Shown piece by piece: positions 15,800 to 58,371 of a stretch of 64,000 bases of DNA. Source of the DNA: Octopus vulgaris (Eukaryota); contig OX597819.1 in the NCBI GenBank assembly GCA_951406725.2, positions 55,180,001 to 55,244,000 of the forward strand, in the 5' to 3' direction. The translations under genes were made by a program, and so were the position numbers. Position 1 is the first letter of the stretch. Every line of letters begins with the position of its first letter. The notes under the pieces are model-generated. The model did no database searches. It was given only the letters and a program-made list of their open reading frames with translations, and was not told the DNA's origin.

Positions 15800-16013
15800 C
15801 GCCCTTTTTTAAAGCCTGGCCTGGCTCATGGCTCCGGTTTCCCGGTTTCTATGACGTATGTGTTCCCCAGCTGGACGGGACGCCAGTCTATCGCAGCGTT
15901 GCTCATTTTTGCCAGCTGATTGGACTGGACCAACGTCGCCTGGTCCAGGAATGGAAACCACAATCTTACGATCATGATACTGACACCCTAACCACTAAGC
16001 CACGCGCCTCCAC
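15800..16013 (-). mobile_element. tRNA-derived SINE (family C)
   Basis: Head ggaggcgcgtggcttagtggttagg. Related heads at about 19400-19750(-), 22090-22260(+), 32222-32520(+), 46590-46897(-), 56773-57000(+) and 62895-63123(-). Confidence 0.7.
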
Positions 16014-31832: not shown

Positions 31833-33987
31833 TTTTGTGAGTGTGTATGTCATCATCATCATCATCATCGTTTAACGTCCGCTTTCCATACTAGCATGGG
31901 TTGGACGATTTGACTGAGGACTGGCGAACCAGATGGCTGCACCAGGCTTGAATCTGATCTGGTGGAGTTTCTACAGCTGGATGCCCTTCCTAATGCCAGC
32001 CACTCCGAGAGTGTAGTGGGTGCTTTTACGTGCCACTGGCATGAGGGTCAGTCAGGCGGTACTAGCAACTACAACTGAATGGAAATAACTATATGCATAA
32101 GTATATAATCCATCATATGGTCCAGTCCTTGTTGTGATGTGATGGCTTCTGTGCCTGTGAGACCATGAGAGGTAGACCATCACTGATCATTAAAAATATT
32201 GTGCACTCAGATAAATTTAGTGGAGGCACATGGCCTAGTGGTTAGAGCAGCGGGCTCGCGGTCAAGGGATTGTGGGTTCAAATCTTAGACAGGGCAATGT
32301 GTGTGTTTATGAGCGAAACACCTAAGCTCCACATGGCTCCGGCAGAAGGTAATGGCAAACTTCTGCTGACTCTTTTGCCACAACTTTCTCTCACTCTTTC
32401 CTCCTGCATCTTGCAGCTTACCTGCGATGGACCGGTGTGCCATCCAGGTGGGGAACCTATATGCCAAGGAAACCGGGAAACCGGCCCTTATGAGCCAGGC
32501 ATGGCTCAAGACAGAACAAATAGATAAATTTATACATTCTGCAAGAGAAATTTCAGAGCATACTGGATGACCACTACTGTTAAAACATGTCTCTAGGAGA
32601 AGGTCATTCAGATACCAATAACATATCTATAATTGAATGAAAATAATCATATGCATACATATATAATCCACCATATGGTCCAGTCCTTGAGGTGTGATGG
32701 CTTCTCGTACCCCAGTGACCATGAGACTTTTGCTTGTAAGTCAGTAGAGCACAAATTCTTGGTAGGGCTTCCCATGCTGGACAGCTCAAAGGCCAGACTA
32801 ATACAACCCCCACCTTCCCAGATATAAAAATGGGTTTGCATAGTGTTAACTTACCAAGAAAAAATGTCATGTAACAGAAGCATCAATGATAATTCAGAAC
32901 CAACCAGACCTGGTAGAGGAAGGCTTTCCTTTAGGAGGAAGACAGCCCAGGGTTAAGTACAATGGAGAAAAGTCAATAGTCTATGTTCTGGGAAGAACTA
33001 AGTGCTTAAATAAGTAAGAATGCATGTATAATGAACCGACTAAGTTGTAATCAGCTTAAAATACACAGAATAGAGTTCAGATGGCCTAAGAAAACAACTA
33101 ACAAATAATGACCTCAAATATTGTATGCAAAAGAAAAATAAATCCCAGTCTTTCTAGTCTAAGAATATTATAACCATTATAATATTAATTATAGTAATGG
33201 CATGAATAAACATATCCACCCATTTACACACAAATACAAACACATCCAGACTCATATATCCATTACAACCAACCCACAGCTAATCAATATAAGACTGAAC
33301 AAACTTTTTTTCATATGTTATTTTTATGTAATGCCCTGTAAAGAAAATTAGGGTATTCAGTACAGATTTTTAGTTTAGTCTACAAAGATCTATGTGAATA
33401 CAAAGCTAATAATAATTAGCCTATAGGTGCAAGGCCTGAAGTTTACATTGACCGCAGAGCTCGACTGGTACTTCTTTCGTCGACCACAAAAGAATGGCAA
33501 AGTTGCCCTCAGCAGTATTTGAACTCAGGACAAAATGAACTGGAAGAAATACTGCTAAGCATGTTATTCAATGAGTTGGTTGCCTTAATAATATTTCTTT
33601 CTTTATTGCCCACAGGGGACAAACAAGGACAGACAAAGGGATTAAGTTTATTACATTGATCCCAGTGTGTAACTGGTACTTAATTGACCCTGAAAGGATA
33701 AAAGACAATGTTGACCTCAGCAGAATTTGAACTCAGAACGTAACGGCAGACGAAATACCACTAGGCGTTTCACCCGGTGTGCTAATGATTCTGCCAGTTC
33801 ACTGCCCTATTGCCTTAATGATATTGATGATGATAATCTTTATCTTATTGCCACTGGGGCAATATATACTGTAACTTGTAGCCCCAGGAGGACACCTCCT
33901 CCAGCTGGTTATTGACACACTATCTTAGCTCTGGGTCAATACCAAGAAACTTGAGTGGAATTTTCAGGACATTTATAAAGAAAAGTT

Positions 33988-34037
33988 AGTGTTACAACTG
34001 TTTCTGGGATATTAAGGATATCCCTTCATCAGAGACG
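33988..34037 (-). ncRNA. Minimal type I hammerhead ribozyme motif (A1)
   Basis: gtct-CTGATGA-a-GGGATAT ccttaATATCCC-a-GAAAC-agtt-GTA-acac. Intact core and 7-bp stem II; stem I has one mismatch. Confidence 0.7.
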
Positions 34038-34292
34038 ATGTAAGATGGCTAAATTGAGCTGAAATATTAGAATTCACAGCCTTGGCTTTGTTGTCTCATT
34101 TTATTTAACACATACCTACTCATACAACACCCATATTAGACTCTTCATTCGTATCATTATCGAACTGAGAGTTTAACTACAGCCCTTCCATAGCACTTGC
34201 ATAGTGTTACCTGCCACCTTGGGTCTTCTGGATACCAATACTCCTCATATATATTATTTACATTATTTACATTTGACGGATATTTGTCCTCA

Positions 34293-34335
34293 TCAACGTT
34301 TCGGCTGATATACCCTCCAGCCTTCATCAGGTGTC
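34293..34335 (-). ncRNA. Minimal hammerhead motif (B1); 3' strand of stem I deleted
   Basis: gacac-CTGATGA-a-GGCTG gagggtatat CAGCC-GAAAC-GTT. Confidence 0.65.
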
Positions 34336-34454
34336 TTGGGGAAATTTCGAACCTGAGTTCTGGGATATTAGGGATATCCCTTCATCAGAGACAATGTGAG
34401 ATGGTTAAATAGAGGGAAATATTAGAGTTCACAGTCTTGGCTTTGTTGTCTCTA

Positions 34455-34745
34455 TATGGTGTAGTGGTTAAGACCATGGGCTACTAACCCCAAGATTCCA
34501 AGTTCGATTCCAGGCTGTGACCCGAATAATAATAATAATAATGACAACAACAACAACATCATTGAAAAATACCTTAGGAATGAGAACTCAAGTTCAAAAT
34601 TTCCCCAAGACACCTGATGAAGGCTGGAGAGGATATCAGCTGAAATGGTGTGTTAACAACAAACAAGATGAGGACAAATATCTGTCAAATGTAAATAATG
34701 TATATAATTCCTCAACCCTTAAATATAGAACTGTAATAAATAAAT
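34455..34745 (+). mobile_element. tRNA-headed SINE-like element carrying a decayed hammerhead motif (B2, 34609-34654)
   Basis: A box tggtgtagtgg, anticodon-like arm ggg-ctactaa-ccc, B box gttcgattcc, (AAT)n linker, then gacac-CTGATGA-aggctg...cagct-GAAAT-ggt-gtgtt. Confidence 0.7.
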
Positions 34746-35329
34746 ATATATATATATGTGTGCCTCCTAGTCTTGACATCAGGAGGTAGTTGTAAATGAA
34801 CATCACCTTAATACAAGTGGTGTTGTTCATCTCCAGTCTTTCATGGAAATATGCTTGAGCATGGGGAGAAAAAAAAATAACCTTGCTTGAAAACAGATAT
34901 GGGTTAGTAGCAAGGAAGGGAATCAAGTCATAGAAAATTTGCCCCAGTGAAAATCTGGCAGGCCCTTGTGAGCATAGAAAACTAGATGTTAAAATTATGA
35001 TGGTGGTGGTGGTGGTGGTGATGCTGCTGCTGATGATAATAATCCATTACCAATAAATCTGATAGATTCTATATTACTCTGTGACCATGTTGAAACACTA
35101 CCTACAAGGAATTTAGTCGATCACATCAGTCTCAACTAAAGGTGTATCACATTCTATTGATGACCCCCTCTCACCTGCTAAAATACTCTTTGAAGCGATT
35201 TGTTTTCGCAGATTCAAACTAACTTTAACTTTTTCATAATCATGCTTCTAAACAAAAGAGGTTTGCCAATTAATTTTCAAATTAGCCAAAAATCTGGAGG
35301 AATAAGAATAACTTTTAATTTATTTTCTT

Positions 35330-44465: not shown

Positions 44466-47400
44466 GGTTAGATCCTGGATAATTTCTTGTTTATGTGATG
44501 TAAGGATGATTAGAGATAAATCACCCTTTCATAGGCGACTGAACTGTTATAGCAGGGATTGGTTGTTTTATGTAGAAGACACTGATCAAAAGAAAAAAAA
44601 AAACAAAAACAAAAGCATAATACTATTCCATTCTATTATAATACCATTTCTTGCAACACTTGAATCACTTCTACTGTTTGACCAAAATACCTGTTTGACC
44701 AATATACTTAGTTCTATCAAGAAATAAATATATCAGTCACAGACACAATGCTGCACTGGTGACAGGATATGAACTGGCCGCCGTCCTATCAATTTAGCCA
44801 CCACCTGCATCAGCTATCCGAGTTAAACAGTACACTAGAAAATCAATGGATTAACTATAATGCCAAATATTGGATTACTAACAGGATAAACAAGCACGCT
44901 GCACTGATTTGTCTAAATTGGCAAAGAAAATAAAAAACAAAAGACTCAAATGTGACCCACTTAAGCCTTTGTTTGGCACAAGGGTTTGGACCCCACTTTT
45001 TTTAGTGCAAGTCACAAGTTCATAAAAAGTTGTAAAAGTGCACCTGTACTGAGAAAAATAATGAATCTTTAATTTTAGAAATTAATAGGTATGTAATTTG
45101 TATTAAATTGCTATTCAGGGTTTTAAATTGGGATTTTCACCTAGACATTTAGAGACTTCATCAGTAGTTGATTTAAAATTTGAATTTGGATAAAATTTTG
45201 CCTGTGAGTGAGGGGTTTTCCCCACCTTTAGTATAGCATATGTACTAATCAAATAACTATTTCAAATTTTGCCACCAGGCCAGCAATTTTAGTGAGAGAG
45301 GGTTAGTTGATTACATCAACTCCCAGCATTTGAGTGCTACTTTATTTTATTGACCCCATAAGGATGAAAGACATACATATATATATATATATGTATGAAT
45401 GTGTGTGCATATGTTTGTCTCCCCAACACCGCTTGACGGCCGATGCTGGTGTGTTTACGTCCCTGTAACTTAGTGGTTTGGCAAATGAGACCAATAGAAT
45501 AAGTACTAGGCTTACAAAGAATAAGTCCTGGGGTCGATTTGCTCGACTAAAGGTGGTGCTCCAGCATGGCCACAGTCAAATGACTGAAACAAGTAAAAGA
45601 GTAAAAGAGTAAAGAGAGTATATATAGACATACACACACACCTTTCATCATCATCATCATTTAACGTTCATTTACATATATATCCTCGTTTTTTTTAATT
45701 TATTATTTCATCTTCGTCATCATCATTTAATGTTCATTTATATATATATACGTATCTATATATGGATGGGAAAAATGTCTAATGTAATTTTCAGTATCCA
45801 AGTTGTCACAAATGTTGCAAAGCTTTCATTTCAGCATTTCCTACTTTTAGCTTCAAGAATTTCACTCACTGCGATGTTTAGATTTTGAAGATGGAATTAG
45901 AACCTATTTGCATGCGTGGGAGAATTGACATTATATGACCCACCCCTAAAAAGGAAATGTTGTTCAAGTCTTGCAAACATCATCATCATCATCGCTATCA
46001 TCTCCATCATTATCATCATCGTCACCATTTTTGTCAGCATTAGCATCATCAGCATTGACAACACCAATAAAGATGTCTCAAAGTTTATTCTTCATATCTC
46101 GTCAGATGGGTTTTGCTCAATTACATACAACTGTATGACGCCAACCTATTCCAAATCAGATCAACTCTCTATAAAGCTGTAACTCCAAAACACGTGATTT
46201 TTTTGCCAGCCTTTCAGCTGTGTAACTATAAAATACAGGACATTTTACAAATGTTTATCCCTGACTAAGGTCAATATTGATACAAGAAAGCCACCTAATA
46301 AAGGTCAATAATAATACACGCAAAACTACCTACCCAATAAGGAGAAATAAAACATTCCAAACAAAGAATAAAGAACAATACCAAAGAAGGAAAAAGATTT
46401 GCTGAATATCTACAATGAGTCATAAAGAGTAAAAAAAAATCATACTGAGTGCCTTATTTGACTTTTTGTTCTGCCTCAAAATAGTTGCAGCATTTTCTAA
46501 ATTGCAAAAGTTCATAAAACTTAACCCTTTTGTTACCAATCCATCTGAGACTATTTCTGACTCTATGATGAAAAAAAAAATAAATAAATGTTGCCCTTTT
46601 CAAGCCTAGCCAGGCTCATGGGCCCAGTTTCCCGGTTTCTGTGGCATATGTATTCCCCCCCACCCAGCTCGATGGGACACCAGTCCATCGCAGTGTTACT
46701 CAAGAAACAGGAAGAGAGAGTGAGAGAAAGTTGTGGCAAAACAGTACAACAGAGGTCGCCACCACCTACTAACAGAGCCTCATGGAGCTTTTAGGTGTTT
46801 TCGCTCAATAAACACACACAATGCCTGGTCTGGGAATCGAAACTGCAATCCTCCGACCATGAGTCCGCTGTACTAACCACTGGGCCATTGCGCCTCCACT
46901 GACTCTATGATACAAGAAAATTATTGTTTCAAATTATTCATATTTAACCCTTTCTAATTACTAATTCACTTGAGACCACCCTTGGTTCTTTGACAAAAAC
47001 TTCCTGTTTTAAAAATTATCTAAATTATATTTTTCCATTAAAATTTTATGTTAATTTATATTTCACACATTGTCTTAATAATGACAAAATTAGCTAAGTT
47101 TGTCAAAGTCCTTCTTTCTGGTCTGTCTTGGGCAACAAAATAACTTTGACGAATCTAGCTAATAGATTAATTGATAGATTAATCAAACAAATGATGAGAT
47201 AATTGGCTAATTAACAAAATTATTTAACTAAATCATTCAATATTTTAAAAATCAGTTGAAATAAAGGTAGTGTATAGCAACAAAAATATGAAAACAACAG
47301 GGGTAAATTAAAATCTTCCACCAGTTTTGACTAAGGACTGTTTACATTATGTTCCTGATGTCAACTTTATAACAGAAAAAGAATGATTGTTTAACTAAAT

Positions 47401-56516: not shown

Positions 56517-58371
56517 TTAAAAAGCATTAACTGATATTACACTCCAAACATGCCTAACACTTTAACTCTAAAGCATAAGTATACTGAGTTCTAACAACTG
56601 ATTATTAATATCACTCTATCTTACTGAAATACATATATATTATATATTTTAAACATATATATATAAAAGAACATTATTATTCATAGAAATAATAATGTTA
56701 GTGGCTGCAAGCATAAAGGCCATATAGGCAAAATTTATAAATATATATATATAGAGAGAGAGAGAGAATATGTTGAGGCGCAATGGCCCAGTGGTTAGGG
56801 CAGTGGACTCGCGGTCGTAGGATCGCGGTTTCGATTCCCAGACCGGGCATTGTGAGTGTTTATTGAGCGATAACACCTAAAAAGCTCCACGAGGCTCCGG
56901 CAGGGGGTGGTGATCCCTGCTGTACTCTTTCACCACACTTTGTGGCATTGTGACCAGCGATGTGTAACAACATCTGATGGTCTGGTCGGTCACATGATCA
57001 CGTGATGATATAGAATATAGAAATATATTTGTATATACTAGGGTACTAATAAGCACCTGCTTTGCTAAAGATAGCAGTCAAAACACTCCAAAGCCACAGA
57101 AGAATCACTAAATTAATACAGGCATGGTAGGAAAAAATTTAAGTGAATAAGAATTGTGCCCTACCGGGAGATAAGATGAGTGTCAACTTATTTAATGTAG
57201 TGAAGCAAGAAATTTTCATTTGCTAAAATAACATCCATGGAGAAGAGAAATATCACTATGTAACAAATTAAAATTTTTTTTTTTGCTTTTAATCAGTAAG
57301 TGCTATTTCCAATTTGCTTCTATCTAGAAATCAAAGGAAATTACTACTCCCTTTAGACTTGGCTTTTGTGACCTGGACATCAGTATTTTGAAACTTACCA
57401 ATTTTCCATTACATTTCAGACAGACTCAGTGCTGAGTTGCTGAAGCAGAAATATCATTATAGCAAATATTCTGCTCAATACCGCAGATTTGCTTGTCACT
57501 TGCTTGAGCATGTCCCTTAGTGGTTGACAATATCTGCAACGCTGATCATGAGCAGGAGTAGTTGAGAAGCACTACAGCCATATATTGGGAGGGAGCCTTT
57601 GGGGTTTAAATAAATATCGTAAAAGCAATTTTTGAAGAAAATATTAGCAATTTTTCATACTTTCTTGCGATAGGCAAATAGGAAATAACAGTTGCAACTC
57701 AAGAAGAAAAAATCATTTCACACAGTGTAATCATTTTGGGGAGACAATTATGGAATTGTCTATGATTCATCATGGAAGATATATACTGAATAGCAAAACA
57801 TAAGGAAAGAAAGTCAACACCAAAAATAGTGCAGCCTAGTATTAAAATAGCACCAGATGCCAAGGTTAAACTATTGCCTCATTGTTGAAAGAGATCTAAC
57901 ACCAAACAGACAGAATGTTTGAAGAATCTAGCGATAATCAATTTGAAACAGTCATAATAGTTTTCCCATGATGATCAACTGCAATACAAGAGCATCAAAA
58001 ACAACTGATGCTAAAATGATTTCATTTAGACTATATAAAACTGGGATGGTCTACAAACTTCAATAGATTTTTCCTTATATATTTACTGTTTCAAACAAAA
58101 TATAAAGGACCAATAACATACATGGAAATAGCAAAAAGAAAAAGAAAAAAAAAGTTTAATAATAAAAAGCTAAAACTGAGTCATATTATGAGTGGAATTT
58201 GGTAAAAAGACAGTGGATATGTAGCCTATAGTGTGTGTGTGTGTGTGTGTGCACATGCATGCATATATGTATATACATGTATGTGTGTGTGTGTGTGTGT
58301 GTCTCTCTCTCTCTATATATATATATATGTATGTGTGTGTATGTTCATACATATATGTATTACATTACATG

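What the first reader, a model, noticed from the sequence alone, without database searches (positions are those of the whole stretch)
33988..34654. Four hammerhead cores from two families within about 670 bp, in tandem and inverted arrangement
Seen: A1 (33988-34037, minus, complete core), B1 (34293-34335, minus), A2 (34357-34393, minus, truncated where B sequence begins) and B2 (34609-34654, plus). A1 and A2 sit in a direct repeat of roughly 90 bp; B1 and B2 are inverted. Inference: tandem and inverted terminal repeats are typical of Penelope-like integration, and the junction next to the A2 core may reflect template switching between ribozyme-bearing RNAs. A1 is the best candidate for residual activity.
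Basis: partly seen in the sequence, partly recalled or inferred. Interest (0 to 1): 0.75.

Follow-up and report, generated by a model that had tools for sequence, protein, structure and literature searches.

The report
Nested decayed Penelope ends, captured flank
The four hammerhead-like motifs are real, but they are worn ends of two ordinary Penelope-type jumping-gene insertions; the extra copy (A2) is a duplicate of neighbouring DNA that was likely copied in while the second element inserted, and none of the four is predicted to cut well.

Summary
The motifs and repeats are there, but they are not four independent ribozymes. B1 and B2 are most simply the two arms of one head-to-head insertion of a Penelope/Poseidon-type element, the family norm (39 of 57 loci). 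A1 is the inverted arm of a Hydra-type element whose direct tail lies at 34077-34252. A2 carries A1's inversion junction, found twice in the 2.8-Gb genome, both times here. It is therefore a local duplicate, sitting at the B1|B2 joint with 4-nt microhomology. A and B are not enriched next to each other (1 of 89 A loci, 0 of 59 B loci). Switching between two free family RNAs is not supported. A2, B1 and B2 lack required parts; A1 keeps the core but has a helix I mismatch. Side leads: family B's terminal repeat starts with a tRNA-Arg-like A/B-box head where short copies begin, and the element has no TTTT on its sense strand (possible Pol III promoter; this scan noted that on other DNA). B1's 17-nt deletion starts at the predicted cut. 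Ordinary finding; interest 0.25.

The parts
33952..34076 (-). A1: inverted, 5'-truncated terminal-repeat arm of a Hydra-type PLE insertion (family A)
   Evidence: 88% to the 3' end of an RT/GIY-YIG-coding copy (L095)
33989..34036 (-). A1 hammerhead motif: core complete, 7-bp helix II with an extra A on each side, helix III palindrome changed C>T, helix I 3 of 4 pairs; predicted cut 33993/33992
   Evidence: both changes are copy-specific, since family contigs and reads show the other letter at 33991 and 33997
34062..34089 (+). Inversion junction of the A insertion (2-nt CA microhomology), unique to this locus
   Evidence: 2 hits genome-wide, both in the window
34077..34252 (+). Direct arm of the A insertion: tail only, 91.5% to family majority, ending in a short TA run where B inserted
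34253..34361 (-). B1: inverted, tail-less arm of the B insertion; core at 34330-34295; 17-nt deletion starting at the predicted cut removes the helix I 3' strand
34358..34452 (-). A2: 95-nt direct duplicate of 34002-34097 filling the B1|B2 joint; TTCT microhomology to B1 at 34358-34361; core cut off at GAA
34454..34735 (+). B2: direct arm of the B insertion = 3' UTR/pseudo-LTR of a Penelope/Poseidon-type PLE, with tail
34454..34521 (+). tRNA-like head of B2 (A-box-like 34457-34467, B-box-like 34502-34510; box definitions recalled), followed by an (AAT)n tract to about 34559
   Evidence: (family head aligns best to a genomic tRNA-Arg(TCG), z=9, of 30 tRNAs tested), 67
34609..34654 (+). B2 minimal hammerhead motif: helices I and II pair, but helix III/U16.1 is mutated; predicted inactive
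   Evidence: family letters at 34646 and 34648
34703..34735 (+). PLE tail (start of the next unit), present on B2 and absent from B1

Best explanation
The region holds the worn ends of two Penelope-like insertions side by side, and A2 is a local duplicate of A1 DNA that was likely copied into the joint between the two arms of the B insertion while that insertion formed. Step 1 (shown): a Hydra-type element left an inverted arm (A1) plus a direct tail. Step 2 (inferred from family structure and PMC11167929): a Poseidon-type element cut the AT-rich end of that tail and primed cDNA from both ends of the break on its RNA, giving B1 (tail-less start) and B2 (tail start). Step 3 (inferred): B1's growing 3' end stopped at a spot where other inverted arms also end, annealed by TTCT to the local sequence about 250 nt upstream, copied 91 more bases and was joined to the B2 end. 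Step 4 (shown as sequence; inactivity inferred): all four motifs then decayed. The ribozymes are passengers of the terminal repeats; their closeness is a by-product.
For: The A junction occurs only in A1 and A2, exact or with up to 3 mismatches, and in none of 29 other A loci. A2 fills the B1|B2 gap exactly and matches the local flank (E 2e-26). Head-to-head B pairs occur in 39 of 57 independent loci, usually with gaps of 13 nt or less. One other long filler (L006, 84 nt) is copied from the element's own ORF, so template jumps at this joint recur. RNA reads join the same two B points without A2 (34361>34454; 4, 6 and 23 reads in three runs, probably from other copies). B1 and B2 share one derived change and show the tail/no-tail asymmetry. 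28 of 30 endonuclease-selected loci run on into the B head and core; the majority element has a 799-codon open frame with RT and GIY-YIG. [quoted passage not shown] Literature: opposite-strand min-HHR pairs 100-700 bp apart and inactive monomers (PMC4209133); inverted 5' copy plus tail (PMC8557442); both strands cut and extended, HHR dispensable in vitro (PMC11167929); host DNA captured beside or between pLTRs (PMC3846280).
Against: The B1+A2 block is much less diverged than its partners: B1 0 against B2 8 private substitutions, A2 2 against A1 7, together 2 against 15 (P=0.002, post hoc). B1/B2 is the most lopsided of 28 arm pairs. One event predicts equal ages. No empty-site allele was seen among the joints shown (513 joints not shown), so the order of events is inferred. 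A 4-nt microhomology is weak. A local-flank filler was seen in only this 1 of about 40 pairs. DNA and read-through RNA templates cannot be told apart.
Confidence: 0.72

Rival explanations
1. Two separate B events: B2 inserted first, and B1 plus the A2 filler were added later at the same AT-rich spot (or A2 was patched in by break repair such as polymerase theta end joining). A2 is still a local duplicate.
For: B1+A2 differ from family majority at only 3 of about 200 positions, against 7-9% for A1, the A tail and B2.
Against: A late copy of A1 should carry some of A1's 7 private changes, and it carries none. B1/B2 have the standard orientation, tail asymmetry and joint position of one insertion. 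B1 and B2 share a derived change, though other copies have it too.
Confidence: 0.17
2. One reading: the reverse transcriptase switched from a B RNA to a ribozyme-bearing or ribozyme-cut A RNA, so A and B cores are joined near the core as a rule.
For: The joint falls inside A's GAAA, 9-13 nt from the predicted cut. B1's own 17-nt deletion starts at the B cut (offset 0 to +1), and 9 of 49 deletion types in 143 B arms start within -4..+2 of the cut (3.4 expected, P=0.006). This hints that cut RNAs are sometimes copied.
Against: A2 contains the locus-specific junction, which a free family-A RNA would not have. The copied piece neither starts nor ends at the cut. There is no A-B enrichment: 1 of 89 A loci has a B core within 1.5 kb, against 0.8-1.6 expected (computed for 86 loci), and 0 of 59 B loci have A. 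The deletion excess drops to P=0.24 in the 46 arms not selected on the core and is absent in A (4 of 69 types, 3.9 expected). No B 5' end of 143 and only 3 of 29 A 5' ends lie at the cut. A softened form, with a read-through RNA of this very locus as template, cannot be excluded.
Confidence: 0.07
3. The cluster is a functional multi-ribozyme unit (a retrozyme or a dimeric A1/A2 ribozyme) kept by selection.
For: A1 and A2 are in tandem on one strand, minimal hammerheads are proposed to work as dimers (PMC4209133), and the B1+A2 block is unusually little diverged.
Against: A2 lacks helix III, the cut site and helix I, so it cannot be a dimer partner. B1 and B2 face away from each other and each lacks a required part. 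There is no tandem unit. The A1 hammerhead fold costs -1.0 kcal/mol against -7.4 for the family majority.
Confidence: 0.04

Closest known systems
Minimal type I hammerheads in pLTRs of metazoan Penelope-like elements (Cervera & De la Pena 2014, PMC4209133; parts 1-2 of 4 read)
   Same: Family B majority: core, bulged base before helix II, G10.1-C11.1, palindromic ACGU helix III, 5-bp helix I. Opposite-strand pairs a few hundred bp apart and many solo truncated copies are described there.
   Different: The family A majority has a longer palindromic helix III (ACAGCUGU) and an extra A between helix II and GAAA, also seen in an unrelated genomic motif (L146). The window's copies are damaged. No cleavage was tested.
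Penelope/Poseidon-clade PLEs, e.g. Poseidon_Ac (Frangieh et al. 2024, PMC11167929; parts 1-2 of 4 read) and Adineta Pen2a (PMC3846280; passages)
   Same: Family B: one ORF of about 800 codons with RT and C-terminal GIY-YIG, HHR in the pLTR, two 3' end positions giving an optional tail, inverted 5' arm, AT-rich targets.
   Different: Family B's pLTR begins with a tRNA-like A/B-box head and an (AAT)n tract, and short copies begin there. I saw no such head in the parts read, and searches returned no paper describing it.
Hydra-clade PLEs (Craig et al. 2021, PMC8557442; passages, section 11 and supplement file 1 searches)
   Same: Family A: Hydra-like RT, C-terminal GIY-YIG with CxxC and a CxH-like end, TA-repeat targets, HHR in the 3' repeat. 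Intact genomic relatives have RWK, DKT and CxCX5C.
   Different: It is not Hydra-1_Obim: the listed HHR differs and two A motifs are absent from the supplement. A has a long 3' UTR with low-complexity sequence, and all A copies seen are broken.
Schistosoma Sm-alpha SINE-like hammerhead repeats (seen only through review passages in PMC6765202) and animal non-LTR retrozymes (PMC7229834 passages; 10.64898/2026.07.22.740005 part 1 of 5)
   Same: A Pol III-type promoter next to a hammerhead (Sm-alpha); short HHR-bearing repeats tied to PLEs (retrozymes).
   Different: Here the tRNA-like head is part of a protein-coding PLE's own terminal repeat. There is no tandem array of units with intact ribozymes.

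Membership tests
Minimal type I hammerhead (PLE type) | Core CUGANGA ... GAAA ... NUH with helices I-III, in the family majority sequences | tested here: met
   A helices 4/7 bp with palindromic helix III and GUA triplet; B 5/5 bp with ACGU and GUU triplet
Minimal type I hammerhead (PLE type) | The same features intact in the four window copies | tested here: not met
   A2 truncated, B1 without helix I 3' strand, B2 without U16.1, A1 with a helix I mismatch next to the cut
Minimal type I hammerhead (PLE type) | G10.1-C11.1 directly before GAAA, one bulge after A9 | tested here: inconclusive
   Met in B. A has an extra A before GAAA, conserved in 43 copies and present in another family; its effect on catalysis is unknown
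Minimal type I hammerhead (PLE type) | Self-cleavage (dimeric or protein-assisted) | not testable with these tools
   Needs a bench assay; RNA-seq of a related organism showed no pile-up of ends, which is uninformative
Penelope/Poseidon PLE (family B) | Single ORF with RT, DKG motif and C-terminal GIY-YIG with CCHH-type residues | tested here: met
   (799-codon open frame in the majority of 39 segments; motifs read by eye; the 5' 600 nt rest on 2-5 copies)
Penelope/Poseidon PLE (family B) | pLTR with HHR, optional tail, inverted 5'-truncated arm | tested here: met
Penelope/Poseidon PLE (family B) | RT phylogeny within the clade | not tested
Hydra-clade PLE (family A) | C-terminal GIY-YIG without CCHH, with CxxC/CxH, and (TA)n targets | tested here: met
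Hydra-clade PLE (family A) | RWK, DKT and CxCX5C motifs | tested here: inconclusive
   Present in intact relatives about 50% identical over the RT. A copies are 5'-truncated and their linker is degraded
Hydra-clade PLE (family A) | RT/EN phylogeny within the clade | not tested
   No tree was built
Non-LTR retrozyme | Non-coding tandem units, each with a complete type I HHR | tested here: not met
   Both motifs belong to ORF-bearing elements; no tandem unit here
tRNA-derived SINE (family B short copies) | tRNA-like 5' head with A and B boxes at which copies begin | tested here: met
   15 of 28 core-selected insertions reach their 5'-most point within -10..+15 of the tRNA-like +1, and 1 of 28 goes more than 40 nt upstream
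tRNA-derived SINE (family B short copies) | A separate non-autonomous family, distinct from its partner | tested here: not met
   The head is part of the coding element itself in 28 of 30 endonuclease-selected loci
tRNA-derived SINE (family B short copies) | Transcription by RNA polymerase III | not testable with these tools
   Indirect only: no TTTT on the sense strand

The most novel reading that the evidence does not exclude
Family B is a protein-coding Penelope-like retrotransposon driven by a captured tRNA-Arg-type Pol III promoter in its terminal repeat. Its 2.7-kb sense strand avoids the TTTT terminator, and the same promoter yields SINE-like short copies by the ten thousand. Its insertions record template jumps at the head-to-head joint (here onto flanking DNA), and possibly scars of ribozyme cutting at the GUU site.
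Probability: 0.3. Interest if true: 0.7.

Novelty: new member of a known kind. Interest (0 to 1): 0.25.

Why it matters
The cluster itself matters little: it is the expected debris of two abundant Penelope-like families. Its one useful lesson is mechanistic. The steps after priming in PLE insertion are unresolved (PMC11167929 calls them unvalidated), and a filler copied from the flank into the head-to-head joint fits priming from both ends of a break followed by microhomology joining. If fillers like this prove common, they would test that model against fold-back self-priming. The family-level lead, a coding retroelement read from a tRNA-type promoter, would matter more, but it does not depend on this locus and the scan has noted it before.

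Tried and rejected
Rfam: no hit at gathering score in the window, no hammerhead at E<=10, no tRNA hit on a B copy. ARAGORN finds no tRNA in the window and calls the B majority head only at a much lowered threshold, so the head is tRNA-derived at best, not a tRNA gene.

B as a stand-alone SINE was my first reading; rejected. A as a Naiad was rejected because the endonuclease is C-terminal. None of 20 Hydra-type loci carried a B-like end. A master A subfamily carrying the junction was rejected. Pfam did not recognise the PLE proteins (best RVT_1 E=0.02).

No RNA holder of the stretch is on record. RNA-seq of a related organism shows family reads on both strands, no end pile-ups and no reads on 34973-35300; the organism may differ, so this is no evidence on expression. 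DNA contigs of four runs showed no empty site among the joints listed.

5' ends at the cut: 0 of 143 B arms and 3 of 29 A copies (its A starts are rough where gaps stopped the walk). A host gene was not identified from ORFs of 120 aa or more (not scanned against families). PMC5785218 (small PLE hammerhead variants, dimers) is not held; it may describe the extra-A variant. Supplements of the bioRxiv retrozyme preprint were not seen. A sequence look-up of earlier findings returned nothing.

Full report
1. Observation. 34002-34097 and 34358-34452 are a direct repeat (90.6%, 96 nt); 34253-34361 and 34583-34708 are an inverted repeat with a 17-nt gap. Rfam sees no hammerhead. The window lies on contig 6 of a 2.8-Gb animal genome; the repeats look like octopus repeats to me, which is recalled and not from a call. 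Exact core patterns occur 6018 (B) and 281 (A) times with empty controls, so both are repeat families and true copy numbers are higher.

2. Family B. Thirty best matches show a unit of about 285 nt: tRNA-like head, (AAT)n, hammerhead motif, tail. In 39 of 57 independent loci (19 of 29 chosen by similarity, 20 of 28 chosen by the core pattern alone) a copy is joined head-to-head to an inverted partial copy, typically one arm with and one without the tail. That is the structure drawn for PLEs in PMC8557442, and PMC4209133 already reports opposite-strand pairs 100-700 bp apart. Some copies continue upstream into GIY-YIG coding sequence. Of 30 loci chosen on that coding part, 28 run on into the B head and core. 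A full-length copy has the ORF starting right behind the tail, and the majority of 39 segments gives a 799-codon open frame with RT, DKG and C-terminal GIY-YIG. B is therefore the 3' UTR/pseudo-LTR of a Penelope/Poseidon-type element, and B1+B2 have the layout of one ordinary insertion.

3. Family A. In other copies the hammerhead part is followed in the same sense by the sequence that lies at 34077-34252 on the plus strand. The A insertion here is thus a plus-strand tail preceded by an inverted arm, A1. [quoted passage not shown] Intact relatives in the genome carry RWK, DKT and CxCX5C, the marks given for the Hydra clade. A is not Hydra-1_Obim. No tree was built for either family.

4. A2. 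The repeat A1/A2 spans the inversion junction of the A insertion. That junction is in none of 29 other A loci and occurs twice in the genome, exact or with up to three mismatches, both times in this window. A2 is therefore a copy of this locus. It fills the gap between B1 and B2. It joins B1 through TTCT, which is the reverse of the AGAA in A's core, so the core looks cut off. TTCT occurs twice in the 350 nt upstream. Other inverted B arms end at about the same point, and reads from a related organism join 34361 to 34454 without A2 (probably other copies). Among the other pairs, gaps are mostly 13 nt or less; the longer ones are simple repeats, short B-derived pieces and one 84-nt piece of the element's own ORF.

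5. Mechanism. Shown: the parts, their orientation, the uniqueness of the junction and the microhomology. Inferred: B's endonuclease cut the TA-rich end of the A tail; both ends primed cDNA on B RNA (the anole protein cuts and extends both strands and starts at two sites that define the tail, PMC11167929); the left cDNA jumped to the flank and copied 91 nt; the arms were joined. DNA and read-through RNA templates cannot be separated. Against this reading, B1+A2 is much closer to the family majority than its partners (2 against 15 private substitutions, P=0.002 post hoc; B1/B2 is the most uneven of 28 arm pairs, P=0.008 uncorrected). A later addition of B1+A2 would explain that, but not why A2 shares none of A1's 7 changes. 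No empty site was seen.

6. Adjacency: 1 of 89 A loci (a few are the same place fetched twice) has a B core within 1.5 kb, against 0.8-1.6 expected (computed for 86 loci and an assumed detection rate), and 0 of 59 B loci contain A. Activity: both family majorities fit the minimal hammerhead. 10 of 43 A copies and 11 of 81 B copies keep all criteria, and none of the four window copies does. A1 keeps the core but has a mismatch in its 4-bp helix I and a changed helix III palindrome; its hammerhead fold scores -1.0 against -7.4 kcal/mol. Published minimal monomers did not cleave (PMC4209133), and the anole motif needed protein (PMC11167929). Joints near the core: the B1|A2 joint is 9-13 nt from the A cut, and copies rarely begin at the cut. 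However, B1's deletion starts at offset 0 to +1 of the B cut, a 3-nt deletion removing the GUU triplet recurs in 12 of 143 arms without clear subfamily marks, and 9 of 49 deletion types start there (P=0.006). The excess is not significant in the 46 arms not selected on the core (4 of 35, P=0.24) and is absent in A. Slippage in the GT-rich site is a sufficient alternative. This is a lead, not a result.

7. Side lead. The B head aligns best to a genomic tRNA-Arg(TCG) among 30 tRNAs (z=9; not all isotypes were in the set) and starts 30 nt after the ORF stop. 15 of 28 core-selected insertions reach their 5'-most point within -10..+15 of its +1, 4 at -11..-40, 1 further upstream and 8 downstream. 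The 2,700-nt majority has no TTTT on the sense strand (2.8-4.0 expected in the 2,349 nt tested, P about 0.02), while six Hydra-type ORFs have 9-16; but GGGG is also absent, and a hairpin at the head could stop RT instead. Searches found no paper describing a tRNA-headed coding PLE; Repbase and subscription journals were not searchable. I reached this, which showed that the scan had noted the same on other DNA.

8. Verdict. A real feature and an ordinary one: new members of known PLE kinds in a nested, decayed arrangement, with one informative filler. Interest 0.25. Papers seen: PMC4209133 (parts 1-2 of 4), PMC11167929 (parts 1-2 of 4), PMC8557442 (passages, section 11, supplement file 1 searches), PMC3846280, PMC6765202 and PMC7229834 (passages), PMC10886601 (one reference line), 10.64898/2026.07.22.740005 (part 1 of 5); PMC5785218 nothing.

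Noticed in passing
window 34454-34521; L209-L238, L242: Family B's pseudo-LTR begins with a tRNA-Arg-like A/B-box head 30 nt after the ORF stop; short copies start there and the sense strand lacks TTTT (possible Pol III-driven PLE).
   Followed up: partly
window 34295/34294 and 143 B arms: B1's 17-nt deletion starts at the predicted cut, and a 3-nt deletion of the GUU triplet recurs in 12 of 143 arms; the enrichment is not significant in the unselected subset.
   Followed up: partly
window 34253-34452: The B1+A2 block is unusually close to family majority (3 substitutions in about 200 nt) next to neighbours 7-9% diverged; unexplained.
   Followed up: partly
family A motif; L146:6050-6129 (-): An extra A between helix II and GAAA is conserved in family A and recurs in an unrelated hammerhead-like motif; effect on cleavage unknown.
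   Followed up: partly
L129-L148: Several Hydra-type PLE families have intact 700-1090-codon ORFs with long asparagine-rich linkers, many near-identical copies and so probably recent activity; Pfam does not recognise the three tested.
   Followed up: no
L006:1411-1494: An 84-nt filler at a B head-to-head joint is copied from positions 209-288 of the element's own ORF.
   Followed up: yes
L017, L024, L025, L028, L150: Near-perfect head-to-head palindromes of B centred on a small hairpin just before the tRNA-like head, which suggests fold-back joining in those copies.
   Followed up: no
window 33440-33540, 33610-33800, 33860-33950, 32069-32705: Other high-copy repeats flank the cluster (very deep in DNA contigs for the first three), and a 68-nt direct repeat 558 nt apart lies at 32069/32627.
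   Followed up: no
window 32220-32496, 46593-46902, 56771-56941, 15800-15905: Four copies of a repeat that also sits inside the long A copy L095 (4771-5075), with a tRNA-like start; probably a common SINE inserted in that copy.
   Followed up: no
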